Source: an uncultured Methanosarcinales archaeon
Lineage (GTDB): Archaea > Nanobdellota > Nanobdellia > Woesearchaeales > CAYSVS01
Assembly: GCA_964589485.1 (NCBI GenBank)
Contig: CAZPRK010000005.1
Location: forward strand, 62,001-88,854
DNA length: 26,854 nucleotides
Direction of reading: 5' to 3'
Part shown: positions 1,716-18,300 of the stretch, piece by piece
Layout: every line of letters begins with the position of its first letter
Position numbering within the stretch: position 1 is the first letter of the stretch
Notes under the pieces: model-generated
Databases searched by the model: none
The model's input: the letters and a program-made list of their open reading frames with translations, nothing else
What the model was told of the DNA's origin: nothing
Position numbers and translations under genes: made by a program

Positions 1716-1976
1716 ATGGTAAAGTTAGATGAAATAACTAGATTGCAAATAGCAGAAGCAATTGAAAATGTTAAGGCATGTAAACCATTAGAAAAAAAGC
1801 TTTCTGAGGGTGAAAGTCACTTAGAAGAAAACATGCGAGAATTAGTTTTCTCAGGTGCAATAGAATGGCGAGAATTTGTAGAAAATTTAAGTCTGTATGA
1901 CCCAGACTATGATAGAATTTTACATAACAAAACATCAGGTCATAGAAATTTTAGCGTATTGCATGGATGTGGTTAA
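1716..1976 (+). CDS. Hypothetical protein, 86 aa
   Basis: ATG preceded by a G-rich SD-like tract (AAGGGGGGA). Protein-like composition; no recognisable motif. Confidence 0.65.
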   Translation: MVKLDEITRLQIAEAIENVKACKPLEKKLSEGESHLEENMRELVFSGAIEWREFVENLSLYDPDYDRILHNKTSGHRNFSVLHGCG

Positions 1977-2866
1977 ATAAAAGTATCACCAATTAAACAT
2001 CTGGCACTACCGCCACCTTCTTTTTCAATAGTTGGTATGTTTAATTCTAAAATTTCAGAACTTTTTTTTATAACTTCTAATTGCTCACTAGTATAACTTC
2101 TCAAAGCAGTTGAAGAAGCAATAAAATACTTATTTCCATCTTTATTTTTTACTTGTAAAACATTTCCAGCCATGTTATAAAATTGATCCATAGTAATAGG
2201 AATAACTTCTCTTCCAATTTCATTCAAATTATTTTCTAAATTGTTTCTTTCAGTTTTATTTAATAAATCATAACATACAACTGTAAAATCTTCACCAATA
2301 GACATGAGTAAATCAGTATGATAAACAGGTGTTCCATCTAACTGTTGAGTATTAAAAGTAAATGGTTGATATCCAGTTAATTTACCAAATGAAAACACTG
2401 CTTCTAACGAAGTTCGTTCAGATAATGCCGCATAAACTACTTTATTTACTCTATCTAAAACTAAACTACCTGTTCCTTCTAAAAATACATCACGTACTTC
2501 TAATTCACTTAGATCAATAAAATAATTAATAGAATATTTAGAACGCAAAAAATCTACTATATCGCCTCTTCTTTCCTTCCTTCTATTCTCTGCAAACATA
2601 GGGTGTAAAATCAAAGTACCATCCTCATAAGTTGTTATCCAATTAGGAAATAATTCATCAGGCGTATCTTCATTAGTTCCTTCAAATAATAGTACTTCAA
2701 TTCCTTTTTCTTTTATTCTTTGAACACTTTCATCAAATTCTTCACGTACAATTTTAGAAACATCTTCTCCAGAACTAACTTGCCTTCCATTAGTTGCAGC
2801 AGTTTGAGGATTAGAATAAAAATTAACAGGACTAATCATTAATAAAGTATCTGTAATTTGTTTCAT
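1973..2866 (-). CDS. Amidinotransferase/pentein-superfamily hydrolase, CtlX-like (citrulline utilisation hydrolase family)
   Basis: N-terminal LLMISPVNF..NPQTA, TPD..FPN, PMFAENRRKERR, FLEGTGSLVLDR, YAALSERT, YHT (catalytic His) and GGGSARC (catalytic Cys). Confidence 0.88.
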   Translation of the reverse strand: MKQITDTLLMISPVNFYSNPQTAATNGRQVSSGEDVSKIVREEFDESVQRIKEKGIEVLLFEGTNEDTPDELFPNWITTYEDGTLILHPMFAENRRKERRGDIVDFLRSKYSINYFIDLSELEVRDVFLEGTGSLVLDRVNKVVYAALSERTSLEAVFSFGKLTGYQPFTFNTQQLDGTPVYHTDLLMSIGEDFTVVCYDLLNKTERNNLENNLNEIGREVIPITMDQFYNMAGNVLQVKNKDGNKYFIASSTALRSYTSEQLEVIKKSSEILELNIPTIEKEGGGSARCLIGDTFI

Positions 2867-5445: not shown

Positions 5446-7257
5446 TTGAGTAAAAAACAAAAAGTAAGTGAAGAAGAAAAAAAAATGTTAGAAAAGCTTC
5501 CAAAAGAAGCTCAAGAAAAATTAAAACAAATAAAATCCAAATTAGATAAATTTCAAAAAGAATTACTTAAAAAATTCGATAAATATGTTTCAGGAATAGC
5601 TTTAATGCCACCTCAAAAAAAAGAAGGTGAAGAAAAAGCAGATACTGATAAAATAAATGTAGTCATATTAGTTGATGATTCAGATAGTCAAAAGATGTCT
5701 AAACTAGAACTAAAAGAAAAATTACAATCTATAATTGCAACATCCGCAAAAGATATTGATAAAAATATTGTGCCACAAGTTATTATTCTTTCTGAACTTT
5801 GGCAAAGTTGTTATGATGGAAAAACAGAATTATTACAAACAATTGCATTAAGTGCTCCAGTATATGACACAGGAATGTTAGCAGCAATTAAAATATCTGA
5901 AGTTCATAAAACAATGGTATTAAAGAAATTTGAAAAATATATTGTTAGTTATGTTCTATCTGGGTCTTTAATTAGAGGTCAAGCAACTCCTACATCAGAC
6001 ATTGATGTATTTATGGTTATTGATGATACTGATGTTAAAAAAATGACTAGAGCTGAATTAAAAGATAAGTTAAGAGCTATAATTATAGGAATGGGCGTAG
6101 AAGCAGGAGAAATGACCGGAGTTAAAAATAAAATTAACATCCAAGTTTATATCTTAACTGATTTCTGGGATAGCCTAAAAGAAGCAAACCCTATAATTTT
6201 CACATTATTAAGAGATGGAGTTCCATTCTATGATAGAGGCGTTTTTATGCCTTGGAAACAATTATTAAAAATGGGCAAAATAAAACCTAGCCAGGAAGCA
6301 ATTGACATGTTTATGAGTTCAGGTGAACAAATGCTTCAAAGAGTTAAATTAAAAATAAGAGATATTGGTATGGAAGACCTATTTTATGCAATATTAACAC
6401 CTTCTCAATCAGCTTTAATGATGTTTGGTGTTGCACCACCTACACCTAAAGAAACAGCAGACTTAATGAGAGAAATATTTGTAAAAAGAGAAAAATTATT
6501 AGAAGAAAAGTTTGTTAAAACTCTTGAAACTGTAATAAAAATTAGAAAAGATTTAGAACATGGAACAAAAAAAGAAATTACAGGAAAAGAAATTGATTCT
6601 TTGTTAAATGACTCAGAGAAATACTTAAAAAGAATTAAAAGGTTATTTACACAGATTGAAAAAATCAAAGAAGAAGAAGGAGTTTTACATACTTATGAAT
6701 CAGTTGTAAGTATTATTAGAGATGTTCTTAAATTAGAAGGCGTAGAAAAAGTTAACGATAAAGAAATGGTTGAATTGTTTGAAAAAGAAATGATTTTATT
6801 AGGAAAAATTCCTGAGAAATTTTTAAGAATTTTAAACAATATAATCAAAGCTAAAAAAGACTACGACAATAAAAAGCTTAACAAAAAAGACATAACTAAC
6901 GTGAATAAAGATTCAAATGAATTAATTAAATTCTTAGTTGAGTACATACAAAGAAAACGTGGAAGAGAATTAGATAGAGCTAAAATCAAAGTTAAGTATG
7001 GTAAAAAATATGGCGAAGTTATCTTATTAGATAAAGAAGCTTTTTTCATACACGACATAGATAGCGAAGATAAAAAAATCAGTAAAGGAAAAGTTAAAGA
7101 TAATGGTGAAATTGAAATTGTTTCAGAAACTACTTTAGAAGAATTTGAAAAAGCTTTAACTAAAATAGTAATTCCTCCAAAAGTTTTCATACATGAAAAA
7201 ACATTTGAAAGACTCAAAAGTGTTTACGGGAATGATGTAGAGATACTTGTTAATTAG
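5446..7257 (+). CDS. Pol-beta-type minimal nucleotidyltransferase (MNT) and HEPN-like multidomain protein with internal duplications
   Basis: YVLSGSLIRG.A...SDIDVFMVIDD is the hG[GS]-x-DxD NTase motif (aa 173-187). A helical domain carries RKDLEH (Rx4H, aa 367-372). Each domain has a degenerate second copy. Confidence 0.85.
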   Translation: MSKKQKVSEEEKKMLEKLPKEAQEKLKQIKSKLDKFQKELLKKFDKYVSGIALMPPQKKEGEEKADTDKINVVILVDDSDSQKMSKLELKEKLQSIIATSAKDIDKNIVPQVIILSELWQSCYDGKTELLQTIALSAPVYDTGMLAAIKISEVHKTMVLKKFEKYIVSYVLSGSLIRGQATPTSDIDVFMVIDDTDVKKMTRAELKDKLRAIIIGMGVEAGEMTGVKNKINIQVYILTDFWDSLKEANPIIFTLLRDGVPFYDRGVFMPWKQLLKMGKIKPSQEAIDMFMSSGEQMLQRVKLKIRDIGMEDLFYAILTPSQSALMMFGVAPPTPKETADLMREIFVKREKLLEEKFVKTLETVIKIRKDLEHGTKKEITGKEIDSLLNDSEKYLKRIKRLFTQIEKIKEEEGVLHTYESVVSIIRDVLKLEGVEKVNDKEMVELFEKEMILLGKIPEKFLRILNNIIKAKKDYDNKKLNKKDITNVNKDSNELIKFLVEYIQRKRGRELDRAKIKVKYGKKYGEVILLDKEAFFIHDIDSEDKKISKGKVKDNGEIEIVSETTLEEFEKALTKIVIPPKVFIHEKTFERLKSVYGNDVEILVN

Positions 7258-7265
7258 CAACAAGA

Positions 7266-7273
7266 TTTATAAA
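7266..7273 (+). promoter_or_regulatory. Archaeal TATA box for eif1a (probably a leaderless transcript)
   Basis: TTTATAAA ending 24 nt before the ATG, purine-rich flank upstream, no SD. Confidence 0.6.
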
Positions 7274-7297
7274 CAAAGCGATAATTTGTAATATTAA

Positions 7298-7642
7298 ATG
7301 AAACCAAAGAAGAAAAAAACAAGTTCCGAGGAAGACGCACAACAAGATATTAGAAAAATAAGACTTCCTAAACCACCAGAAAGTTTCGGTATTGTTGAAC
7401 AAAGACTTGGCGGAAGTCGAATGACAGTTAGATGTCTTGATGGAAAAGTAAGAATTTGTAGAATTCCTGGAAGATTAAAAAGAAGACTTTGGGTCAGGGA
7501 AGGAGATTTAGTTATTGCAGAGCCATGGGAACTTGGTGGAGATACAAAGGGAGATATTCTTTTTAAATATAGGCCAGCACAAGTTCAATTCTTAAAAAAT
7601 AAAGGCCAATTAAAACAACTAGATGAACTAGACGAGTTTTAA
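7298..7642 (+). CDS. eif1a: Translation initiation factor aIF-1A
   Basis: RLPK...GIVEQRLGGSRM.VRC.DGK.RICRIPGRLKRRLWVREGDLVI..PW...KGDI...Y. Confidence 0.97.
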   Translation: MKPKKKKTSSEEDAQQDIRKIRLPKPPESFGIVEQRLGGSRMTVRCLDGKVRICRIPGRLKRRLWVREGDLVIAEPWELGGDTKGDILFKYRPAQVQFLKNKGQLKQLDELDEF

Positions 7643-7714
7643 CTACTCAAAGATAGAAATATTTATATAATGAATTAAAAACATTTTTTCTTATAATTTA
7701 ATGAGGGGATTTTT

Positions 7715-8269
7715 ATGAATAACAAATTATTTTGGTTTATAGATTTATTAATACTGTTTATATTTTTAAAATTAATTAGCTTAAGTTTTAGTTTAAGTGG
7801 TTCAATGTTTAAGTTACAATTCATTGTACTTGTTGCATTGTTAATTTTAGGTGGATTGACACTTCTTAAAGATAAATATGCATTATGGTTTTTCTTAGTT
7901 AGTTTAATAGATACATTAATTCTATATTCTCATTTTGAAACTAGGTTAAAATTAATCATAATTCCTTTAGGTGCTGGAATAATAGGTTTAGCTCTTAGTT
8001 TAAAACAACCAGAAGAAGAGGAAGACAACGAAGTTACTGAATTTGAATTAGAAGAAACTCCTGAAACTAAAGTATTATTGGAAGAATATGCTCCAGAAGA
8101 AAAAAAATCAGAATTTTCTCCAGGTAAATTTTTAGCTAGTAAATATGGTAAAACTTATCATGCTCCAAAATGTACATGGGCTAAAAAAATAAAGAAAAAA
8201 AGCCAAGTTTGGTTAGAAGACAGTAAAGAAGCTAAAAAGAAAGGTTATACTAAACATAATTGTTTATAA
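7715..8269 (+). CDS. Membrane protein (about 4 TM) with acidic linker and C-terminal Ada-metal-binding-like domain
   Basis: Hydrophobic N-terminal half, Glu-rich linker, then ASK.GKTYH.P.C.WAKKI....VW.....EA...GY..H.C. Confidence 0.75.
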   Translation: MNNKLFWFIDLLILFIFLKLISLSFSLSGSMFKLQFIVLVALLILGGLTLLKDKYALWFFLVSLIDTLILYSHFETRLKLIIIPLGAGIIGLALSLKQPEEEEDNEVTEFELEETPETKVLLEEYAPEEKKSEFSPGKFLASKYGKTYHAPKCTWAKKIKKKSQVWLEDSKEAKKKGYTKHNCL

Positions 8270-8680
8270 TTATTCCCAGAAATATATTATTAACAATCCA
8301 ACTCCAATAACTAGAGCTGTATCCGCTACATTAAATACTGGCCATATTTTAAAATCTAAAAAGTCAATAACATACCCATAATATAACCTATCAAATAAAT
8401 TACCCAATGTTCCTCCTAAAATTAAAGCCACAGCTACATTAACATATGTTAATTCAGGAATTTTATTATAATAATAACCAATTGCACCAATAACGCCAAT
8501 TGAAACTAATACTATTATTAAAAATTGATGTTGAAATAACCCAAAGCCTACACCGTAATTTTTTACTAAATTTAAACTAAAAAAAGAAGTTATATCTACA
8601 TCAGTTGCAAAATATTTTGTAATCCTATCTAAAAAAAAAGTAATAAAAGTAACTAAAAAAAACAAATAATGTTTTACCAT
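8270..8680 (-). CDS. lspA: Lipoprotein signal peptidase (signal peptidase II, peptidase A8)
   Basis: D..TK, N.G..FG, LILGGTLGNLFDRL, GYVIDF and WPVFNVAD; both catalytic Asp residues are present. Confidence 0.95.
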   Translation of the reverse strand: MVKHYLFFLVTFITFFLDRITKYFATDVDITSFFSLNLVKNYGVGFGLFQHQFLIIVLVSIGVIGAIGYYYNKIPELTYVNVAVALILGGTLGNLFDRLYYGYVIDFLDFKIWPVFNVADTALVIGVGLLIIYFWE

Positions 8681-9024
8681 CTTTTATCTTTCTGTTCTAA
8701 AGAATTTAATCTATGATTAATAGCTTCCATTGTACTTCTTAAAGCATCTAACTTTGCAGAAATTATTTCCAAATCTTTTTGAATTGAGTTATCCGCTACA
8801 GGTTGTTGTATTGGTTGCGGTTGTACTCTTGGAGCTTCAAAGGGAGTATTCATAGTATTTTTTTCTTCCTCAAAAGCTTTTGGCATCCTAGGCCTTTGAA
8901 AAGTATCTTCTTGTTTCTCTGCTTCTAAACCAAGAGTATTTTCTTGATCTAATCCTAATTCTTTATCAATATCCAAATCTCCAAAATCATCATTTTTTTT
9001 CCAAAATTTTAATTTATCAAACAT
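8674..9024 (-). CDS. Hypothetical protein: amphipathic N-terminus, disordered linker, C-terminal coiled coil
   Basis: MFDKLKFWKK start; Pro/Gln-rich middle; heptad pattern IQKDLEIISAKLDALRSTMEAINHRLNSLE. Overlaps the lspA start by 7 nt. Confidence 0.85.
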   Translation of the reverse strand: MFDKLKFWKKNDDFGDLDIDKELGLDQENTLGLEAEKQEDTFQRPRMPKAFEEEKNTMNTPFEAPRVQPQPIQQPVADNSIQKDLEIISAKLDALRSTMEAINHRLNSLEQKDKRW

Positions 9025-9028
9025 TTCC

Positions 9029-9739
9029 TTATACCATCTTTTCTAAATAACTAGCAGGTAAGTATTTTAATAATTTAATTGAAATTGTCTCAGGATAAAC
9101 AAAAACTTTTCCTTGAGTAAATTCATTAAATAATACACTTACACCACCTTTCATTTTTTCTTGTAATAAACCTAATGAAACCATAGCTTTAACTTGATCA
9201 CTTGATCCTAAATCTAAAGTTATCAAACTAGGATCTACTCCTAACTTAGTTGCATATATTTTTAATAATAAGTTTCCAGCATCTTTTGCTGCAAGAACAT
9301 CTAATGCTTCATCTTTTGATATTTCAAACTGTCCTAAACTTAAAGAAGTAATATCATCAAAAAAACCATCTTTTAATATAAATAATTTATAACTATCTCC
9401 CAACATTTTATCATATTCAGAATTAGAATATTGTTCACTATAAACATTCAATTGTTCATTAGAAAATACAACTGGAAGATCGTTCATATTAATTTCTTTA
9501 AACTGAATTCCACTTAAAATATTGTCAGAATCTTGCAATAATAATATTTTTTCTTCAATTGGTAAACTTTGAGTTAAATCGGTAATATCTTGATATACAA
9601 AAAAACCTAATACTGCAATAAAGATAGAAAATATAGTTGTAATATATATAAAACCTTTAAACATTTTTCCTAAAAAATGAATAACTACAGTGGATATAAT
9701 AATAAACAATATAATACCAATAAGTGGAGTATAATCCAT
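9029..9739 (-). CDS. Hypothetical membrane protein (2 N-terminal TM plus soluble domain)
   Basis: Two hydrophobic helices; SD GAGGTGA at 9744-9750; first gene of a probable three-gene unit ending in lspA. Confidence 0.85.
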   Translation of the reverse strand: MDYTPLIGIILFIIISTVVIHFLGKMFKGFIYITTIFSIFIAVLGFFVYQDITDLTQSLPIEEKILLLQDSDNILSGIQFKEINMNDLPVVFSNEQLNVYSEQYSNSEYDKMLGDSYKLFILKDGFFDDITSLSLGQFEISKDEALDVLAAKDAGNLLLKIYATKLGVDPSLITLDLGSSDQVKAMVSLGLLQEKMKGGVSVLFNEFTQGKVFVYPETISIKLLKYLPASYLEKMV

Positions 9740-9795
9740 TAAATCACCTCTAATAATATTTAAAATATATAGTATTTAAACTTTTCTTATAAAAG

Positions 9796-11010
9796 TCACT
9801 CTATCCTTAATAAACCCTTAAACCCATCAACAACTCTTTTTTCAAAATCAACTACTTTTTCGCCTTCTTGTTTCATTGTATTTAACAAATTCATCATATC
9901 AGAAGTTAATTGTGATTCTTGTTCTAAATCTAAATTTTTAACTTTAATTTGACCAATATGTTCTTTTATTAATTTAATTTCAACATCCTTTGAATCAATC
10001 GTGTTGACTTTAATTTCTTCAAATTCTTTAGTTTTTAATGCAGAAGTATTTTTCATTACAAAATATGCACCTTTATTTGTAACTGCTTCAAATAATTTAT
10101 TAAAGTCAATATCAAAAACTTTCCCATTTTCTAAAGTTCCATGAACTCTAATAGTTACAATACTATTTTTTAATTCTAATTTATCTATTTCAGATAAAAT
10201 ATTATTTTCAATTTCTCTTGGAGAGTTATGGTTACTCAATACTTCTATTTTAGCATGAGAATAAATTTGCACAGGAATCCAATCCAAATTATCATTTTCT
10301 ACAATGTAAAATCCCCCTCTTCCATATTTTTCCAACTCAGCAAAATTATTAGGAAATAATGCTCCAGGATAAGTAATAAGACCATATCCTGGTTCTTGCT
10401 TATCAAAAATATAATGCACATGCCCGCCAGCATAATAATTAAAATTTTTAGGTAATAGACTTAAAGGATTTGCTTCCATGTTTTCTAATCCCTTCGGTTT
10501 AAATTCTTCCAATGCAGAATGAAACATGAATATTTTATATCCATCTTCTTCCTCTAAATGATGTTTCAGTAAATTTTCATAATACTTTTTCTCTAAACAT
10601 CCTTTCTTTCCTAACATTCCAGTAATTTTAACTCCAGTTTTTTCATCTATTGTAAACCTTAACTTTAACTTGTTATCAATTATTTCTCCTTTAACTACAT
10701 TAATAACCAATTGAGCTTCTTCTAAAACATCTAACATTGTTTTTCCACTTGGAGAAAAATCATGACTTCCAGCTATAATATAAACTGGAATTTTTGCATT
10801 TTTTACTTTTCTTAAATGTATGACTGTAGTTTTTAACCTATCGACACTAGGTAATGATGTATCAAATAAATCTCCAGAAATTAACACAAAATCAACTTTT
10901 TTTTCAATACAAATATCTATAGCTCTTCCGAAAGCTTCCAATCCCAATTCACTTAATTTAGGGTCTCTCCATCCACCAATATGAACATCTGACATGTGTG
11001 CGAATTTCAA
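9796..11010 (-). CDS. mre11: DNA double-strand break repair nuclease Mre11 (SbcD-like metallophosphoesterase)
   Basis: Phosphoesterase motifs [29 protein letters not shown]. The TTG start overlaps the herA TGA. Confidence 0.92.
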
Positions 11011-12524
11011 TTTGAAAACCCACCATAATTTAATTTAACATTTTCTTTTTCTTCAATTTTCGCAAATTTTTCAAATAAAGGAATTCTAATAGGCATTGCA
11101 AATTTAGTAAAATTACTTGTAATTATAGCTTCACCTTTATCTAAGGAAGCTATATTCCTGTTATCTGTACTTAAATCTTGACTTGCAGAATCTATAATTG
11201 CTTGCCTTTCAGGAGCCATTTCAATACCAAGAATAATTTTAGTATTCATGTTAGCTAAAATTTGCCTAGGAATCAATGAAGGCAATTGAGTTATTGCAGT
11301 TAATCCCACTTGAAATTTTCTTCCTTCCCTTGCAATGGTTGCAAAAATGTTACTTCCTCTTTCCAAAATTTCTTTCCCTAATACTCTAGGAGCTTCTTCT
11401 AAAATAATATTAATTACAGGTTTATTATTTAATTCTCCTTTTCCTTTATAATTTTTATATCTTGAAAAAATTTCCCAAGAAACTAAACTACCTATTAAAA
11501 TTTCTACATTTCCTGAAAAAACACTTGTATCAATAATAACAGTATTACTTTGTTCCAATTCATTACAAATATCGGTAATAGTTGTATCTCCTGCAGATGT
11601 TTCAAATATACTATTAGTAAAAATTTCATGTCCATTGGATTCTATACTTAAAATTTGCATTAAAACTCGTTTTATAACTGCAATTGTTCCTTCAAAAAAG
11701 CTATTCTTTTCAAGTAAAGATTTATCCAATACAATAGCTTCAATCCAATTCTTACCGTATTCTTTATAATATTGTTGTAAAGCTTGAATTTGTGGATCTG
11801 AAAAATTAATACATCCATTAAAATGCCAAGGTTTAATATTTTTTATATTAATTTTTAATGTCCTTGTTCCAGAAACAGGATTTGAAGAATAATAAACTAC
11901 TTTATTGCTAGAATGATCTTTCAAACCTAATTTATTTCTTCCATAATATTCATCATGTGGATCTAATACTAAAGTACCACAATAAGTTTTATCTAAAGAA
12001 TCCCAAAGCATTACAGACAACATATTACTTTTTCCTCTTCCAGTAGTTGCTGCAATTAAAACATGATGAGTAAATACATTTTTTCCAGGAAGATAAACAT
12101 CTACATCTAAAACTTTAGAACCACTTCTTAAATTCCCAACAAAAATACTATCATTTGGTTTTTCTAAGAAACTTAAATCACTTGATGTTATTTCTCTTAC
12201 TTCTGAAAAAAAAACAGGTAATTCTTTACAAAGTTTTGCATTAACGTTACTTACATTAATCATCGGTTTTAATAAAGCTAAATTATAATTTCTCAAATTA
12301 GCATCAAAAAAATCACTATTTTCATTTTGTTCAAGTTTTAATCCCGAAACTAATTCTAAATTTTGTTGTGTGATTTGACTCCCATATATTAAATCAAATA
12401 CTTGTAATAATATTTTTCCTTGATCGCTTTGAGAAACTAATAATTCACCTAATTCAATTTTCTCTGAACTTTTTTGCCTAATACAAATTTCTCCAAATTT
12501 CCCACCAATAACTATACCTTTCAT
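11007..12524 (-). CDS. herA: HerA bipolar helicase/translocase (HAS barrel plus FtsK-HerA ATPase)
   Basis: N-terminal beta-barrel (ELGELLV), Walker [18 protein letters not shown], Walker [20 protein letters not shown]. Confidence 0.92.
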
Positions 12525-12548
12525 TGATTAAAAAAATCAAGTGATAAT

Positions 12549-12556
12549 TATTTAAA
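12549..12556 (-). promoter_or_regulatory. Archaeal TATA box for herA-mre11
   Basis: TTTAAATA on the minus strand, 24 nt before the herA ATG. Confidence 0.55.
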
Positions 12557-12628
12557 GATTTGGATTATCAAAAACATAATTACAACACTATACAAATCAT
12601 TATAAATCAAAATAAAAACCAAATAACC

Positions 12629-12952
12629 ATGCCAAAAAAAACATTAACTTTACACATCGAAGGAGAAGTATTAGATAACTTCAAAAATTATTGTAAATTA
12701 AATGCATTAAAAGTAAGCGCTAAAATCGAACTATTGCTAAAGCAAGAAATGGAAAATGCAAAAAACAATCCCACTTTAGTTCAAATGTTTAAAGAAATTA
12801 TAGATCAAAATAAAGTACAAAAGGCAGCTACAAAGCCAGACCAAATTCATATGCAATATGCTCCAAAAACTAACATTTCAGATATTATCCAAGAAGTTAA
12901 AAACAGAAAAACTCCAACTATTGATCAATTAAGATACAGAAGAAGTCTCTAA
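12629..12952 (+). CDS. Ribbon-helix-helix (CopG/Arc-like) DNA-binding protein; start revised from TTG 12560 to ATG 12629
   Basis: MPKKTLTLHIEGEVLDNFKNYCKLNALKVSAKIELLL is a beta-strand plus two helices, as in RHH proteins. TTATAAA at about 12600-12606 lies at typical spacing from ATG 12629. Confidence 0.7.
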   Translation: MPKKTLTLHIEGEVLDNFKNYCKLNALKVSAKIELLLKQEMENAKNNPTLVQMFKEIIDQNKVQKAATKPDQIHMQYAPKTNISDIIQEVKNRKTPTIDQLRYRRSL

Positions 12953-13639
12953 TTTAACAATTTTATCTATTTCTCTTTGCGTAATTGAAGCTCCTCGTAA
13001 TTTCAATGCCCATAAAACAGCTTGTAATAAAAATTTACCTGGTTTTTTTACTTCCTTTTTTTTTGGTAAAAAATCATTTAACCATCCTTTCTCATAAGCA
13101 ACAACAGCCAATTCAATTGACCTTATTAATTTAATATTTTTAGTTTTTTCCTTAAACTTTCTCAATTTAGCTTTATCAAATTTCATAGTCCTATGAAGTC
13201 TTCCAGACATAATTTTTTCAACCATCATAGGTTCTTCCACAACACTTCTCATCATTCTTTCATCTACAACCATTGCTTCGGCTTTTAATTTTATAGCTAA
13301 TGCTACAGCTTCCATTTCAGCATAATGTATCATTTTAAAATTTTCTTTACTACAAGTATAACAAGTGTTTACTAATGCTAAAAGAGAATTAGTTAATTTA
13401 GTTAATTCAGGAGTTTCAGTATGAACCTTTAAAGTCCCTTTTCTAATATAATTCAAAACTTGTAAAGCTTCAAATTTAAATTTTTTTGATTCAATTGGTC
13501 TATCTATTAATTCTTTTCGTACAGATAAAGGAATGTAAAATTCTCCACCAAAATCTTCCTTTAATTTATCTAAAACCCATAACATATTATTTACAGCTAA
13601 ACTTATAATAGGTCCAGAATCAAAAATAATAACTCTCAT
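12929..13639 (-). CDS. PIN-domain protein (DUF3368/COG2405-like)
   Basis: IIFDSGPIISL, YIP.SV..EL, AEMEAVALA, VVDER give the acidic residue set of the PIN fold. Confidence 0.8.
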   Translation of the reverse strand: MRVIIFDSGPIISLAVNNMLWVLDKLKEDFGGEFYIPLSVRKELIDRPIESKKFKFEALQVLNYIRKGTLKVHTETPELTKLTNSLLALVNTCYTCSKENFKMIHYAEMEAVALAIKLKAEAMVVDERMMRSVVEEPMMVEKIMSGRLHRTMKFDKAKLRKFKEKTKNIKLIRSIELAVVAYEKGWLNDFLPKKKEVKKPGKFLLQAVLWALKLRGASITQREIDKIVKLETSSVS

Positions 13640-14196
13640 TTGAATAATTTCCTCGCAAAATTTAACCTTCGTTTTACATCTTCCTTGAAAGGGTTTAAAT
13701 CCATAAATTCAGTCTTACCAACATAACTCATCAATTCCCATTGTGAAATTCCCATAAGTGATGCTGCTTTTGCGATACTAACTCCATTTTCAACTAATTT
13801 ACTTCCCTTTGTAATTCTAGCTTTATTAACAACTTCTTCAACAAAAATTCTTAACCTTGCATCAATCTTATCAATTAGCTTAAATATTGCTTTTATTTCA
13901 GAACTATATCTTTTCCTATCAGATTGTTTCATAAACTCGATTGCATTTTTTAAATATAAAATAATAGAAGAATAATATTTTTTATCAATAATTGTCATTC
14001 TTTCTAAAATTTTAAAAATAGAATAAATTAAAACTGCAATAGACATTGAATCTTCATCTTGATATAAAGCAGTTAATTTTATTGCCCTATTACTTAATTC
14101 TTTCAATTCAAAAATATCTCTATCTACTCTACTTTCTAATACATTAATAGTTAAAGTTAAAATTTCTAATAATTCTTTTTTAAGTGCAAGAATCAT
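13636..14196 (-). CDS. Helical protein with C-terminal HTH (UPF0175/COG2886-like), PIN partner
   Basis: GVSIAKAASLMGISQWELM matches the G.IS..KAA.L.G.S..EF pattern. ATGA overlap with the PIN gene. Confidence 0.72.
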   Translation of the reverse strand: MILALKKELLEILTLTINVLESRVDRDIFELKELSNRAIKLTALYQDEDSMSIAVLIYSIFKILERMTIIDKKYYSSIILYLKNAIEFMKQSDRKRYSSEIKAIFKLIDKIDARLRIFVEEVVNKARITKGSKLVENGVSIAKAASLMGISQWELMSYVGKTEFMDLNPFKEDVKRRLNFARKLFK

Positions 14197-14284
14197 ATCA
14201 GAATATTTAATATTACAATATAAAAGCTTTTCTATATATAAAGGTACAATAAAATATTTAAAGTAAATATTGTATCCTTAAACT

Positions 14285-14599
14285 ATGTCTTCAATATGCG
14301 AAAAATGTAAATGCGAGATTAATATTAATAATGTAAAATATGTATCTCAAGATGAAGATAATTATAGCGTATTATGTTTATCTTGTTACTCTGGAAAAAC
14401 TCCACAACCTCCTAAGTCAACAAATAAAATTAAGTATTTTTGTTCAAGGTGTAGATATAGCTTTTCCAGAAACCCAACTGTAAAAACTAAATGCCCTTAT
14501 TGTGGAAAAGAAGATAAAATTATTAATGATGACCGTGACATTAAAAACATTATATCAGAAGTTTCTGATCCTACTTTCGATGAAGGAAACCTTTTCTAA
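14285..14599 (+). CDS. Small double zinc-ribbon protein
   Basis: Four CxxC pairs: CEKC, CLSC, CSRC, CPYC. Confidence 0.8.
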   Translation: MSSICEKCKCEININNVKYVSQDEDNYSVLCLSCYSGKTPQPPKSTNKIKYFCSRCRYSFSRNPTVKTKCPYCGKEDKIINDDRDIKNIISEVSDPTFDEGNLF

Positions 14600-15332
14600 A
14601 ATAGATTAAAACTATAATTACAGTAAGTATAGAAATATATTGCCATGAAGTTAACATAAAAATTCTAGGATCTTCCCTAAAAAAATCTACAATAAACCTT
14701 AAAATAGAGTAAAATAATACAAAATTAAGTAAAACCATTCCATCTTGTAACTTTTTCTGTTGCTTAATCTTAACTATAAGTAATAATATTAAAAATAATA
14801 TTAAATGCGTCATTGCTGCATACAATTGATAAGGGTGTCTACAACCTTCATACCCAATAAAATTAAAACACCAATTTACATTTGTTACAGTTCCTACTAA
14901 TTCTTGATTAATTAAATTAGCTACTCTTCCTAATATTAAAGTAAAAGAAACAGGAACAACAATTAAATCAGCTAACTTAAAAAAATCTAATTTATATTTT
15001 TTCACAAAATATATCCCACTTACCAATATACCAATCAATGCTCCAAAGAAAGACATTCCTCCATTCCACACTTTAAACAATTCTAAAGGGTTAGTAAAAA
15101 AAATAGATGGTTGATTTATTAAAAAATGCATTAATCTAGCTCCAACTATTAGACCAATCATAGAATTAAAAATAAAAGAATCTAAAGTTTCATCATTTAA
15201 ATTAAGTTCATTCTTTTTTTTATTTAAAATATAATAAACTAATAAAAACCCTAATATATACACTAAACCATAATACCTTATTTCAATTGCACCATACTTA
15301 AAAAGATAAGGAGCAATATTAATTTCATACAT
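14571..15332 (-). CDS. lgt: Prolipoprotein diacylglyceryl transferase
   Basis: IRYYGL.Y..GF, G..VGARL, W.GGMSF.G, signature LGR.AN.IN.EL.G, RHP.QLY, Y...RF.VDFFRE; multiple TM helices. Confidence 0.95.
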   Translation of the reverse strand: MYEINIAPYLFKYGAIEIRYYGLVYILGFLLVYYILNKKKNELNLNDETLDSFIFNSMIGLIVGARLMHFLINQPSIFFTNPLELFKVWNGGMSFFGALIGILVSGIYFVKKYKLDFFKLADLIVVPVSFTLILGRVANLINQELVGTVTNVNWCFNFIGYEGCRHPYQLYAAMTHLILFLILLLIVKIKQQKKLQDGMVLLNFVLFYSILRFIVDFFREDPRIFMLTSWQYISILTVIIVLIYFRKGFLHRK

Positions 15333-15371
15333 AATATAAATAAAATTTACAAACTATATATATATTTTGAA

Positions 15372-18300
15372 TTAATTAAAGAAAAATTTCCTAAAGAAAT
15401 AAACAAACACAAATACTGCAAATAAATTTAAACCTAAAATCCAATAATTTCTATCATTTTTCTCTATTTCTTTTTCAAATTTAACTAATTCATTAGTTTT
15501 TATCTTTTCAGGCGTTTTTATAGAACTTTTAACTTGATCTGCATTAATTTCTTTTTCAGGCAATGTTATTGCTAAATACTCTAACTCCGAAACTTGAACT
15601 TCAAAATAACTATAATATGAATCAGAATTATACATTTTAAAAGTCAGTTTTTCCCATTTATCATTAATTAAATTATATACACCTATTCCATTCTCTAAAA
15701 AAGTTTTTTCAACTCTAAATCTAACCGTAACATCACTATAATCTTTAAATTTAAATTTTAAAAATTTATATATTGGTTCATCTAATGTTCTAAAACTATC
15801 CATAGTATAAACTTTAAGTTCTAAACTAGTTACATTAGATAATGCATTAAATTTCAATTCTCTTAATACAGCCCTAGTATGATTTAATTTTAATTCTAAT
15901 AAATCTCCTTCAGAAACATCAAGCCATATATGGGTAAAATTTAATCCTTTAGCTGCAGATGAAATTTTAGATCCACCGCCACCTCCGCCGCCGCCTCCAC
16001 CTGAACTACTTGATGAAGAACTAGAAGAACTACTTCCAGGAGATTTACTCCCTGAATTTTTTACTCCTGAAACAAATGTTGAAAAATGACTTACATTTGC
16101 TTCATATGTAATAAATTGCCCAACATTACTTACGTTTACAGTTGATAATTCTTCAAAACTATTTGTTGAACCAGTTTGAGTTGAATATAATGAAATGTTA
16201 TCATAACTAATATTTTGAGAATCTAATTTAATTTTTGAAATTTTAAACGTCATTACACTATCCATTGAACTATTTGTTGTATTCGATTCAACTGTAAATG
16301 ATGTAAATGTTTTTATTGTATAAAGGGAAGTAAAAGTTTCAGGAACTGTAGGAAGAACAGCTAAATCTAATGAAATTGAAGCAGGTAAAGATCTAAAACT
16401 TGAAACAGTATTGGCTACAAAACTACTCAAGTTTGCTCCGCCAGATGAAGTTGCAGCAAATAATTGACTAAAACTTGATTCCACAATAGCAAAAGAAAAA
16501 TTCTTAATATTTCTATTTCCATGTACATCCCAAATAGATAAATATAAAGATTGATTTTGAATTGAAGTATCGTAATATTTACTTAAATCAAATCCTGACA
16601 ATTGTTTACTTGAATTCATTATATTTACTATACTCCCATTAGTTGTAATTATAGTTAAATTTGTCCAATCATTCATTGTAATGTCAAAATCAGATAATAT
16701 TTCAGATGTTAAGACACTTCCATTTACAATTTCACTTGAAGTAATAGTTGGAGGTGTAGTATCGTTAACTAAAAAATCATAATTAAATTCTACATAATTT
16801 GAATGTACATCTTTTAATCCTAATACAACTCCATTAGTTCCATTGTTTAGAATATTATGAAACAAGGACCCATTAACTGGAACATTTGTACAATTAGTAA
16901 TTACAATTCCATTTGTTTTATTCTTAACACAATAATCATTAATTGAAACATTAAAAATAAATTCACCTGAATTTACAGAAATATTTAACATTGAAAGGTT
17001 GTCATTTACAGAAATATTTAGTTTAACATTTTCACCTGACTCTAAACTAACACTTCCATTTATAGGAGATAAGAAAGTAATATTTCCAATAACATTATCT
17101 ATCGAAAAAGATAAAGCCTCCAAGGTAGGAGTAAAAACTCTAGTAATATTATCTAAAGGAACATTACCTGTAAAGTTAGACCAATAACAAGATAAATTTT
17201 GATCAAGATATGTTTTTTTAGTTTCATTTGTACAAATATTTTCAATTAAAAAACAATTATTTAATGAATAATTATTAGTACAATAATGAAAATAAGTTTT
17301 AGAAGAATCAAATGTACTTATATTAACATTAAAAGTCGCATAATAATACTCATCTGAAATAAAATCATTAAAAGATTTTACAACAACTTCTTTTTGAGGT
17401 GTAACTCCTAATGCAATAATTGAAGAATTAAATGTAAAGTCATGAGTTAATATTTTAAAATTTAAACTATTATTCCACTTTGCATTAGTCCCAGTAAAAT
17501 TTAAACTTACTGGAATGTTAGATAAGCTATAATTCACATCCAGATTTAAATTTAAAGTTTGATTAAAATATACTTTATCAACTCCAATTAAACTTCCATT
17601 TTGATATTTAATTGAAATATTACTTGTATTAGTATAAATAGTTTTCATTTTATTACTTTCAAACGTAGAATTAATTTTAGAATTAGTAATAAAATTATAT
17701 ATTTGAGTTTCAAAAATTTTGTTAGTAATATCGATTGCTCCAAATTTAATAGTATGTCTTCCAACATCTAACTGAGTAGTAAAAGAATTAGTTCCATTAC
17801 TATTAGATAAATTATATATTGCTCCATAATCTATGCTAAGATTAGTATAATTCAAATTAGATTCTACAACTGTCCAATTAAAAATATAAGTTCCATTTTC
17901 ATTATTAAATTGAATTCCTTCAGTTAAAGTTAAAGTATTTACATTAATATTACTAATGTTAGGAAATACTTCACTAATTAATAAAGTTTTATTTGAAGAA
18001 TTTACATTCCCAGAATAATCATAAGTAGTAATGTTCAAGTTATATGTTCCATTAGTTCCAATAATAGAGGTATGTAAAGTCCACGTTCCATCAAAGATAT
18101 TTCCATTAGATAAACTAAAATTTGTTGAATTAAATGTTAAATTTGAACTTAAACTCATATTTTTAATTCCAATAATATCAGTAACATTTACAGTAATAAT
18201 TAAAGAACTATTACTTTCAATGATTTCATTATTTAAACTAACACTTTCAATTATTGGTTTTTTGGTATCTATAACAACAATTCGACTAGTTGTAGTATTT

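What the first reader, a model, noticed from the sequence alone, without database searches (positions are those of the whole stretch)
8270..15332. Both core enzymes of the bacterial lipoprotein pathway (Lgt and LspA) embedded in an archaeal chromosome
Seen: intact lspA (8270-8680) and lgt (14571-15332) lie about 6 kb apart, flanked by eif1a, herA/mre11 and an archaeal surface protein. lgt has a TATA-like box about 22 nt upstream, and both genes abut or overlap neighbours, which argues against a chimeric assembly. Established: Lgt transfers diacylglyceryl from phosphatidylglycerol to a lipobox Cys and LspA then cleaves the signal peptide; model archaea lack recognisable homologues of both, and many DPANN lack their own lipid synthesis. 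Inference: this lineage lipidates proteins by the bacterial route, using either archaeal ether lipids (a new donor specificity) or lipids taken from a host, possibly a bacterial one. No lipobox-bearing substrate is evident in this window.
Basis: partly seen in the sequence, partly recalled or inferred. Interest (0 to 1): 0.78.

Follow-up and report, generated by a model that had tools for sequence, protein, structure and literature searches.

The report
Bacterial-type lipoprotein pathway in DPANN archaea
A tiny marine archaeon, like most of its large lineage, carries intact copies of the two bacterial enzymes that lipid-anchor surface proteins, apparently in place of the enzyme other archaea use, although recent specialist papers say archaea lack them.

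Summary
lspA (8270-8680, -) and lgt (14571-15332, -) are intact and single-copy. Both pass Pfam and NCBIfam equivalog cut-offs and lie among archaeal genes on a 99.9%-complete, 1.16-Mb genome. They are old residents, not an island or a chimera. Each family is found in 264 of 301 genomes of the phylum. lspA keeps the same archaeal upstream gene in 24 of 34 relatives. Contigs from four other runs tile the region without differences. The genome holds about 27 textbook lipobox proteins (MKK...L[LI]VG|C), none in the window.

New here: the archaeal lipidation enzyme AliA (Pfam DUF63) and Lgt/LspA exclude each other. In 41 evenly drawn genomes of the class, 6 have Lgt+LspA, 28 have DUF63, 7 have neither and 0 have both.

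The 32 archaeal Lgts can be one clade (AU p 0.87), nearest to diderm-type bacterial Lgts.

The donor lipid is unresolved. The genome lacks GGGPS, CarS, G1P dehydrogenase, PlsY and CdsA.

This window's Lgt has F at E. coli H103 (30 of 32 relatives have H).

This scan reported the same enzymes at least eight times in other Woesearchaeota genomes. One note is marked "in print"; ten literature searches found no such paper.

The parts
8270..8680 (-). lspA, lipoprotein signal peptidase (signal peptidase II, MEROPS A8), 136 aa
   Evidence: PF01252 108 bits. TIGR00077 84.9 against cut-off 73.95. phmmer to solved LspA 6ryo E 7.8e-13, 9emz 7e-12, 5dir 1.1e-11. Both catalytic Asp (window D106, D120) are invariant in 35 of 35 archaeal homologues.
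14571..15332 (-). lgt, prolipoprotein diacylglyceryl transferase, 253 aa, 7 predicted TM helices
   Evidence: PF01790 195.4 bits. TIGR00544 168.9 against 118.9. phmmer to 5azb E 1.2e-31. AlphaFold2 model pLDDT 90.6; the only Foldseek PDB match at E<=0.001 is 5azb (E 1.3e-13, TMq 0.82). Equivalents of Y26, R143, N146, E151, G154, Y235, R239 and R246 are kept; H103 is F and E243 is D.
8674..9024 (-). ORF-A, 116-aa soluble coiled-coil-like protein. Its stop overlaps the lspA start by 7 nt. It is a conserved upstream partner of lspA.
   Evidence: A homologue lies directly upstream of lspA on the same strand in 24 of 34 relatives' loci. No Pfam or NCBIfam family above cut-off. The nearest ESM Atlas clusters are archaeal 'hypothetical protein', commonest taxon Woesearchaeota.
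9029..9739 (-). ORF-B, 236-aa protein with two N-terminal hydrophobic segments, upstream of ORF-A; probably in the same transcription unit
   Evidence: A homologue lies upstream of ORF-A/lspA in 9 of 34 loci. No family match.
15355..15364 (-). TATATATATA run in the 39-nt gap between the subtilase gene and lgt; a possible TATA box for a near-leaderless lgt transcript
   Evidence: Read directly from the sequence. Not distinguishable from chance in DNA this A+T-rich.

Best explanation
The two genes encode a working bacterial-type lipoprotein maturation pathway in a Woesearchaeota-type (DPANN) archaeon.

Proposed mechanism. Sec-exported precursors carry a signal peptide that ends in the lipobox L-[L/I]-V-G-C. 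Lgt links a diradylglyceryl group from a phosphatidylglycerol-like membrane lipid to the Cys thiol. LspA then cuts the signal peptide in front of the lipidated Cys. This leaves about 27 surface proteins tethered to the membrane, among them MsrA, MsrB, a cyclophilin, a redoxin, a copper-binding protein, a PEBP and a PLD-like protein.

Proposed history. The pair was acquired once from bacteria; the Lgt is nearest to diderm-type Lgts. This happened before the radiation of the Woesearchaeales/Pacearchaeales-type orders. The pair has since been inherited vertically and has replaced the ancestral archaeal lipidation enzyme AliA (DUF63).

Shown: gene identity, intact catalytic residues, fold, substrates with the motif, clade-wide conservation, and mutual exclusion with DUF63.

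Inferred: enzyme activity, the single-transfer and displacement scenario, and the nature of the lipid. The organism cannot make that lipid by any recognised route, so it probably takes it from another cell.
For: IDENTITY. Both proteins pass curated cut-offs.
- Lgt: the AF2 model (pLDDT 90.6) matches only E. coli Lgt 5azb. Equivalents of Y26, G98, G99, G104, G142, R143, N146, E151, G154 and R239 are invariant in 32 of 32 archaeal Lgts.
- LspA: the two catalytic Asp and K27, N54, G56, G108, N112, R116, F139 and N140 equivalents are invariant in 35 of 35.

SUBSTRATES.
- With a G+LPP-type pattern, Cys at +1 gives 27 hits, more than any other residue, although Cys is only 1.24% of residues. For comparison S gives 15, N 10, T 10 and D 5.
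- The consensus is G at -1 in 24 of 30, L at -3 in 19 of 30 and V at -2 in 17 of 30.
- 28 of about 110 signal-like proteins carry it, spread over 12 contigs.
- 9 of the 20 largest have extracytoplasmic-type Pfam families over cut-off.

RESIDENCY.
- PF01790 is found in 264 of 301 genomes of the phylum and PF01252 in 264 of 301.
- LspA is found in 30 of 31 families of the order.
- ORF-A-lspA synteny holds in 24 of 34 loci.
- Contigs from four non-source runs cover all 30 bins with no differences. They bridge lgt to the subtilase gene (14589-15637) and lspA to ORF-A and ORF-B (8313-9536).

DISPLACEMENT.
- DUF63 is the AliA/AliB family: the paper's own alignments label the members DUF63. Among controls it rings only in M. 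jannaschii, H. volcanii and M. acetivorans.
- In the phylum sample, 9 of 301 genomes have DUF63, and all 9 lack Lgt and LspA.
- In the evenly drawn class sample of 41, 6 have Lgt+LspA, 28 have DUF63, 7 have neither and 0 have both.
- Independently, Supplementary Data of Hong et al. 2025 score arCOG02177 as 0 in 7 of 7 Woesearchaeota and 24 of 25 Pacearchaeota. The same data predict, for example, 12 lipoproteins among 42 secreted proteins. The text says some archaea with many lipoproteins lack AliA/AliB.

ORIGIN.
- The 32 archaeal Lgts sit with 24 diderm bacteria and 4 CPR in a clade with SH-aLRT 98, apart from 25 Bacillota and most CPR.
- Holding the 32 as one clade is not rejected: AU p 0.873, and the constrained tree is 30 lnL units better.
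Against: - No activity, lipid analysis or expression data exist.
- This window's Lgt is a long branch (0.83-0.98). It has F where E. coli has H103, which is essential in E. coli, and D for E243. 30 of 32 archaeal relatives keep H. The mBio 2026 passages I read say H103 is naturally Y, W or F in some bacteria, so this is a caution, not a refutation.
- The pathway needs a phosphatidylglycerol-like donor. I found no PgsA-level match: pgsA scores 16.6 bits against cut-off 109 for one of the two CDP-alcohol transferases scored with NCBIfam and is not listed for the other, and the third was not scored. I also found no CdsA or CarS.
- Mutual exclusion with DUF63 may reflect as few as one gain and one loss on the tree, so it is not many independent events.
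- DUF63 detection is weak in the smallest genomes (30 and 48 bits in G059 and G247). The 7 'neither' genomes may therefore be misses.
- Bacterial sampling for the tree is limited and biased (a pattern-based scan rich in Proteobacteria, plus two phyla). The donor lineage is not identified, and no LspA tree was built.
- The counts 264 of 301, the trees and the 32-row residue counts include two unpublished genomes (G242, G243).
Confidence: 0.8

Rival explanations
1. Assembly or binning artefact: bacterial lgt and lspA were joined to archaeal DNA by mis-assembly or contamination.
For: The genome is a metagenome assembly of 23 contigs. Both families are otherwise bacterial: 10 of 10 bacterial and 0 of 4 archaeal controls have them.
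Against: - G+C is 0.22-0.32 in all 26 one-kb windows, with no step at either gene.
- Contamination is estimated at 0.74%.
- The genes overlap archaeal neighbours.
- Contigs of four other runs from two studies carry the same junctions with 0 differences.
- Both families are present in 264 of 301 genomes of the phylum, and the archaeal neighbour ORF-A is conserved.
- The archaeal Lgts are only 24-46% identical to the sampled bacterial ones.
Confidence: 0.01
2. In this genome the Lgt is catalytically impaired (H103F, E243D, fast-evolving). Lipidation is then weak, absent or done by an unknown enzyme, and LspA and the lipoboxes persist for another reason.
For: Among 32 archaeal Lgts the window's protein is the only one with F at H103 and the only one with D at E243. 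It has one of the longest end branches. The passages read say H103A does not restore growth in E. coli and that H103Q/N lose function.
Against: - It is the only lgt in a 99.9%-complete genome. That genome still keeps lspA and about 27 canonical lipoboxes.
- All other essential positions are kept.
- It still passes the NCBIfam equivalog cut-off and folds confidently like 5azb.
- F, Y or W at position 103 occurs in functional bacterial lineages. One of the 66 bacterial rows here also has F.
Confidence: 0.07
3. The homologues have drifted to another job. Lgt would be a general glyceryl- or prenyl-transferase and LspA a different intramembrane aspartyl protease, and the lipobox proteins would be processed by an undiscovered archaeal system.
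For: No biochemical data exist. AliA-independent lipidation routes are suspected in archaea. A second, divergent Lgt type (Y26W, N146C, E151G) exists in some relatives.
Against: - The two enzymes and the lipobox signal co-occur, and the phyletic patterns of Lgt and LspA coincide. The same 6 of 41 genomes have both. In the phylum each is found in 264 of 301, and most genomes that lack one still hold the other.
- Active-site residues of both are invariant.
- The lipobox matches the bacterial consensus.
Confidence: 0.07

Closest known systems
E. coli Lgt (PDB 5AZB/5AZC; Pfam PF01790; TIGR00544)
   Same: - Seven-helix body with an N-terminal beta-hairpin arm, and a structural match at TMq 0.82.
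- The signature G-R-x-x-N-x-x-N-x-E-x-x-G is present.
- Y26, R143, N146, G154, Y235, R239 and R246 equivalents are kept.
- The archaeal clade mostly has His at position 103. The mBio 2026 passages give His as the Proteobacteria state, with Y in Firmicutes and W in Actinobacteria.
   Different: - The host is an archaeon.
- It is 253 aa against 291 aa, mainly through a shorter periplasmic head (alignment gaps).
- It is 28% identical over the structural alignment.
- The window's copy has F at 103 and D at 243.
- The lipid donor is unknown, because the host has no recognisable route to phosphatidylglycerol or archaetidylglycerol.
Bacterial LspA (signal peptidase II; PDB 5DIR P. aeruginosa, 6RYO S. 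aureus; PF01252; TIGR00077)
   Same: The catalytic Asp pair and 10 of 12 further family-conserved positions are identical. The residue numbering is recalled from the P. aeruginosa structure paper, which I did not read here.
   Different: It is only 136 aa, against 169 to 188 aa for the three solved chains matched, with shorter extracytoplasmic loops. A109 is T and V122 is I. It sits in an operon with two archaeal genes of unknown function.
AliA/AliB of Haloferax volcanii (arCOG02177/02178, Pfam DUF63, PF01889; Hong et al. 2025, PMC12462473)
   Same: It has the same cellular task, lipidation of lipobox Cys of Sec or Tat substrates in archaea. The substrates have the same motif.
   Different: - It is not homologous at a detectable level. 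The paper reports HHpred probability 29% to PF01790.
- There is no DUF63 match in this genome or in any Lgt-bearing genome searched.
- AliA attaches archaeol (passages read).
- No archaeal signal peptidase II partner of AliA is known, whereas here LspA is present.
Two-enzyme Lgt-LspA pathway of monoderm bacteria
   Same: There is a single membrane, and Lgt plus LspA are present. The substrates are typical extracytoplasmic 'housekeeping' lipoproteins: a PPIase, MsrA/B and a thiol-redox protein.
   Different: I did not search for N-terminal modification enzymes (Lnt, Lit, LnsAB). The Lgt sequence groups with diderm-type Lgts, not Bacillota-type.

Membership tests
Lgt (prolipoprotein diacylglyceryl transferase, PF01790 / TIGR00544) | Full-length match to the family models above the curated cut-offs | tested here: met
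   PF01790 195.4 against 24.9 bits, profile 1-237 of 240. TIGR00544 equivalog 168.9 against 118.9.
Lgt (prolipoprotein diacylglyceryl transferase, PF01790 / TIGR00544) | Lgt fold: seven TM helices with arm and head elements around a central cavity | tested here: met
   AF2 model pLDDT 90.6, pTM 0.86, with 7 long helices plus an N-terminal hairpin. The only Foldseek PDB match at E<=0.001 is 5azb (E 1.3e-13, TMq 0.82).
Lgt (prolipoprotein diacylglyceryl transferase, PF01790 / TIGR00544) | Residues required in E. coli: Y26, R143, N146, G154, R239 (list from the mBio 2026 passages) | tested here: met
   Window Y21, R136, N139, G147 and R212. Each is invariant in 32 of 32 archaeal and 66 of 66 bacterial rows.
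Lgt (prolipoprotein diacylglyceryl transferase, PF01790 / TIGR00544) | His at E. coli position 103 (essential in E. coli; proposed catalytic base) | tested here: not met
   The window has F96. 30 of 32 archaeal relatives have H. The same paper states that H103 is replaced by Y, W or F in some bacteria and is not absolutely conserved, so this feature does not define the family.
Lgt (prolipoprotein diacylglyceryl transferase, PF01790 / TIGR00544) | Lipobox-bearing substrates in the same proteome | tested here: met
   27 hits with Cys at +1 against 2-20 for the other residues. 28 of about 110 signal-like proteins carry the lipobox.
Lgt (prolipoprotein diacylglyceryl transferase, PF01790 / TIGR00544) | Transfers diacylglyceryl from phosphatidylglycerol to Cys | not testable with these tools
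   This needs an enzyme assay. The genome shows no recognised route to the donor.
LspA (signal peptidase II, MEROPS A8, PF01252 / TIGR00077) | Full-length match above the curated cut-offs | tested here: met
   PF01252 108 against 25 bits. TIGR00077 equivalog 84.9 against 73.95.
LspA (signal peptidase II, MEROPS A8, PF01252 / TIGR00077) | Catalytic aspartate dyad (P. aeruginosa D124/D143; numbering recalled) | tested here: met
   Window D106 (YVIDF) and D120 (FNVAD) align to the VVDF and FNLAD/FNIAD Asp of 5dir and 6ryo. Both are invariant in 35 of 35 archaeal homologues.
LspA (signal peptidase II, MEROPS A8, PF01252 / TIGR00077) | Four-TM topology | tested here: inconclusive
   My crude hydropathy count gave only 2 segments at a strict threshold. 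No structure model was made for LspA.
LspA (signal peptidase II, MEROPS A8, PF01252 / TIGR00077) | Cleaves only lipidated precursors; inhibited by globomycin | not testable with these tools
   Needs an experiment.
AliA/AliB (DUF63, PF01889, arCOG02177/02178) | Presence of a DUF63 protein in the genome | tested here: not met
   G000 has 0 matches. Controls ring in M. jannaschii, H. volcanii and M. acetivorans, so the search works.

The most novel reading that the evidence does not exclude
If the pathway works, one of two unusual states must hold. (a) A canonical Lgt uses an archaeal sn-G1P isoprenoid ether lipid (archaetidylglycerol), which would be a new donor specificity and stereochemistry. 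(b) These archaea carry bacterial-type sn-G3P phosphatidylglycerol, taken from bacterial partners, in their membrane.

The boldest version is (b). Under it the Woesearchaeales/Pacearchaeales-type clade swapped AliA for Lgt+LspA because its membrane lipids became bacterial in type, so the lipoprotein machinery tracks the 'lipid divide'.

Hints for (b):
- This genome has bacterial GpsA (NF000942 318.6 against 257) and a PlsC-type acyltransferase, but no G1P dehydrogenase family, GGGPS or CarS.
- GGGPS is found in 0 of 6 Lgt-type genomes against 8 of 35 others.

Against (b):
- GpsA is in only 1 of 6 Lgt-type genomes, against 6 of 35 others.
- The GGGPS contrast is too small to carry weight.
Probability: 0.3. 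Interest if true: 0.85.

Novelty: new member of a known kind. Interest (0 to 1): 0.64.

Why it matters
Two recent specialist papers state the opposite. Hong et al. 2025 (Nat Commun) say no archaeal Lgt or Lsp homologue has been identified. They note that some archaea with many predicted lipoproteins lack AliA/AliB, so another pathway must exist. An mBio 2026 paper concludes that Lgt is 'absent from archaea', from RefSeq genomes.

The data here name that missing pathway for one of the most species-rich archaeal clades. They also show that it is the bacterial pathway, in clean exclusion with AliA.

This gives a concrete, testable case of non-orthologous displacement of an envelope system across domains. 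It also provides the first candidate signal peptidase II in archaea. Finally, it gives a handle on an open question about DPANN cells that cannot make lipids: what their membranes are made of, since Lgt has to use one of those lipids.

Tried and rejected
- Literature. Ten full-text searches and passages read in eight papers found no report of Lgt or LspA in DPANN. The eight are PMC12462473, PMC13631571, PMC13705601, PMC13251419, the Nanobdellota preprint 10.64898/2026.05.13.725050, PMC8204110, PMC13721041 and PMC10936187. An earlier scan note (e1-930344) is marked 'it is in print' but names no paper, so I could neither confirm nor refute that. bioRxiv supplements are closed and subscription journals are not searched.
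- Supplements of Hong et al. hold no 'diacylglyceryl' or 'LspA' entry.
- Expression: no RNA holder listed.
- The GpsA/G3P-lipid link to Lgt was tested across the class and not supported.
- The GGGPS contrast of 0 of 6 against 8 of 35 is too small to use.
- The sigma-70 promoter scan gave 65 sites against 58.1 +/- 8.2 in shuffles. It is uninformative and not the archaeal promoter type.
- The listing of cluster members returned no source names for the two proteins.
- Five 'joints' in the contig laying have sides of at most 30 letters. The tool's own note says such joints often come from other organisms, so I disregarded them.
- The first AU-test run did not finish and was completed.
- No family was found for ORF-A, ORF-B or ORF 7715-8269.
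- I considered a lipobox scan of an AliA-type genome and a 'neither' genome. I dropped it because weak DUF63 detection in the smallest genomes would make either outcome ambiguous.
- No LspA phylogeny was built, because only 6 bacterial LspA loci were fetched.

Full report
OBSERVATION

The window is G000:C5:62001-88854, at the end of an 88.9-kb contig. The genome is 1,158,583 bp in 23 contigs and is scored 99.91% complete and 0.74% contaminated.

Both match their families over the full length.
- LspA: PF01252 108 bits; TIGR00077 84.9 against cut-off 73.95.
- Lgt: PF01790 195.4 bits; TIGR00544 168.9 against cut-off 118.9.

Each gene is single-copy in the genome.

The neighbours are archaeal: eIF-1A, an Mre11-like phosphoesterase, HerA, aIF5A and HisRS. 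A 1715-aa S8 subtilase with an ordinary (non-lipobox) signal peptide lies beside lgt.

lspA overlaps the upstream ORF 8674-9024 by 7 nt and abuts the convergent ORF 7715-8269. lgt overlaps the convergent ORF 14285-14599 by 29 nt. A TATATATATA run ends 23 nt before the lgt ATG. In DNA of 22-32% G+C that is weak evidence.

ARE THE ENZYMES INTACT?

Lgt aligns to E. coli Lgt (5azb, E 1.2e-31).

I took 32 archaeal Lgts: the window, 30 loci from the phylum and one named Woesearchaeota MAG. The equivalents of Y26, G98, G99, G104, G142, R143, N146, E151, G154 and R239 are invariant in all 32. The mBio 2026 passages I read list Y26, H103, R143, N146, G154 and R239 as required in E. coli.

The window's protein is an outlier at two positions. 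It has F where E. coli has H103 (30 of 32 archaeal rows have H) and D where E. coli has E243 (30 of 32 have E). It is also a long branch. The same paper says H103 is replaced by Y, W or F in some bacteria. I therefore treat this as a caution.

An AlphaFold2 model built from 26 archaeal sequences has pLDDT 90.6 and seven long helices. Its only significant PDB match is 5azb (E 1.3e-13, TMq 0.82).

LspA aligns to 6ryo, 9emz and 5dir. Both catalytic Asp (window D106, D120) and eight further conserved positions are invariant in 35 of 35 archaeal homologues. The P. aeruginosa numbering is recalled, not read here.

NOT A CHIMERA, NOT AN ISLAND

Composition is uniform.

Logan contigs of four runs that are not flagged as possible sources (two studies, marine or seawater metagenomes) cover all 30 bins of 7000-16000 with no listed differences. 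Single contigs bridge eIF-1A to the lspA 3' end (7333-8324), lspA to ORF-A and ORF-B (8313-9536), and lgt to the subtilase gene (14589-15637). No single contig spans the whole stretch.

In the phylum sample, PF01790 is over cut-off in 264 of 301 genomes and PF01252 in 264 of 301. In a sample with one genome per family of the order, LspA is found in 30 of 31.

Both families ring in all 10 bacterial controls and in none of the 4 archaeal controls.

A homologue of ORF-A sits directly upstream of lspA on the same strand in 24 of 34 relatives' loci. ORF-B is there in 9 of 34 and eIF-1A is nearby in 7 of 34.

The phylum tallies include two unpublished genomes (G242, G243). Without them each count is 262 of 299.

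SUBSTRATES

I called 1228 ORFs in the genome and scanned N-termini with a G+LPP-type lipoprotein pattern, placing each of the 20 residues in turn at +1.
- Cys gives 27 hits, the most of any residue, although Cys is 1.24% of residues.
- S gives 15, N 10, T 10 and D 5. The hydrophobic residues (up to 20) are inflated by TM helices.

The 30 hits by either of two patterns show G at -1 in 24, L at -3 in 19 and V at -2 in 17. Cys lies at residues 13-21 and none has a twin-arginine. Two or three are false positives: a Rossmann N-terminus, an RNase HII-like protein, and one doubtful case.

28 of about 110 crude signal-like proteins carry the motif. This is close to the 29% (12 of 42) that Hong et al. 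list for a Woesearchaeota genome.

Of the 20 largest, 9 have families over cut-off: MsrA, MsrB, cyclophilin, redoxin, copper-binding, PEBP, PLD-like, PKD and DUF3179. None lies in the window.

RELATION TO THE ARCHAEAL SYSTEM

Hong et al. 2025 identified AliA/AliB (arCOG02177/02178) as the archaeal lipidation enzymes. They state that no archaeal Lgt or Lsp homologue had been found, and that several archaea with many lipoproteins lack AliA/AliB.

Their supplementary alignments label the members 'DUF63'. Their phyletic table scores AliA as 0 in 7 of 7 Woesearchaeota and 24 of 25 Pacearchaeota. It scores AliA as 1 in N. equitans, Aenigmarchaeota, Nanohaloarchaea and most Micrarchaeota.

I searched PF01889 (DUF63).
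- Controls ring only in M. jannaschii, H. volcanii and M. acetivorans.
- In the phylum sample 9 of 301 genomes have it, and none of the 9 appears among the Lgt or LspA positives.
- In an evenly drawn sample of the class (41 genomes including this one), the same 6 genomes have Lgt and LspA, 28 have DUF63, 7 have neither and none has both.

This fits a displacement of AliA by the bacterial pair. Because relatives share history, it may rest on very few events. DUF63 detection is also weak in the smallest genomes (30 and 48 bits).

ORIGIN

Pairwise identity among archaeal Lgts has a median of 48% (32-95%). Identity to the sampled bacteria has a median of 37%.

The tree has 103 rows: 32 archaeal, 3 of a second divergent archaeal type, 18 CPR, 25 Bacillota and 25 other bacteria. 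I kept 27 of the 66 bacterial rows of the first tree (26 of them among the 25 other bacteria and 1 CPR row, plus 1 Bacillota row) and dropped two short matches. The 32 archaeal rows fall with 24 diderm bacteria and 4 CPR in a clade of SH-aLRT 98, apart from Bacillota, most CPR and an actinobacterium.

An AU test does not reject the 32 as one clade: p 0.873, and the constrained tree is 30 lnL units better.

The bacterial sample is biased and the tree is unrooted. I therefore claim only that one old origin is compatible with the data and that the type is diderm-like.

DONOR LIPID

The genome has no match to the following families:
- GGGPS (PcrB)
- CarS
- the G1P-dehydrogenase family PF13685
- PlsY
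- CdsA

It does have the following:
- a UbiA prenyltransferase next to a polyprenyl synthase
- three CDP-alcohol phosphatidyltransferases that lie in glycosyltransferase-rich neighbourhoods; the two that were scored reach no NCBIfam cut-off
- one PlsC-type acyltransferase directly after a lipobox gene
- a bacterial-type GpsA (NF000942 318.6 against 257)

Across the class sample, GGGPS is in 0 of 6 Lgt-type genomes and 8 of 35 others. GpsA is in 1 of 6 and 6 of 35. No lipid gene tracks Lgt.

The donor is therefore probably scavenged, and its chemistry is open.

STANDING

Lgt and LspA are canonical families, and NCBI's own models would name these proteins. The novelty lies in the host domain, the clade-wide fixation and the exclusion with AliA.

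The scan had already noted the enzymes in at least eight other Woesearchaeota windows.

My ten searches did not find such a paper.

Noticed in passing
window 8674-9739 (-): Two genes of unknown function (ORF-A 116 aa, coiled-coil-like; ORF-B 236 aa, two TM segments) form a conserved unit with lspA. ORF-A is adjacent in 24 of 34 relatives. They may be archaeal accessory factors of lipoprotein processing.
   Followed up: partly
G000:C5:24390-25334 (-), same contig, outside the window: A bacterial-type NAD(P)H glycerol-3-phosphate dehydrogenase GpsA sits beside DnaJ/DnaK-like genes, while no G1P-dehydrogenase family match exists in the genome. GpsA is sporadic in the class (7 of 41) and does not follow Lgt.
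   Followed up: partly
G000:C1:9619-11147 (+): A lipobox protein (160 aa, no family) is followed 33 nt later by the genome's only PlsC/PlsB-type acyltransferase (PF01553, 53-55 bits). Among the controls that family rang only in bacteria.
   Followed up: no
G000:C18:1698-2627 (-): A lipobox-anchored PLD-like protein (PLDc_2, 122 bits). It could be a surface phospholipase or nuclease, relevant to scavenging.
   Followed up: no
L116, L120, L129 (Woesearchaeota / Nanoarchaeia MAGs); G027, G196: A second, divergent archaeal Lgt type (Y26W, H103I/V, N146C, E151G) groups away from the main archaeal clade. Some genomes have several Lgt matches (G027 has 4, G196 has 6).
   Followed up: partly
G265:C114:1871-2278 (L150); G012:C10:35718-36104: In some relatives LspA lies in much longer open frames (363 and 257 aa), which suggests fusions. 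An earlier scan note describes an LspA-hydrolase fusion.
   Followed up: no
window 1973-2866 (-): A strong match (263 bits) to Pfam DDAH_eukar, the 'eukaryotic' dimethylarginine dimethylaminohydrolase family, in this archaeon.
   Followed up: no
window 12560-14196: Between herA and lgt lie a small DUF6364-like ORF (12560-12952 +) and two family-less ORFs (12929-13639 and 13636-14196, -). This may be a small mobile or toxin-antitoxin-like insert in the otherwise conserved region.
   Followed up: no
G018, G141 (f71); G031, G084 (f75); G307, G315 (f104); G302: Seven genomes of the class have no Lgt, no LspA and no DUF63 match. Either their AliA is too divergent to detect or they lack lipobox lipidation altogether.
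   Followed up: no
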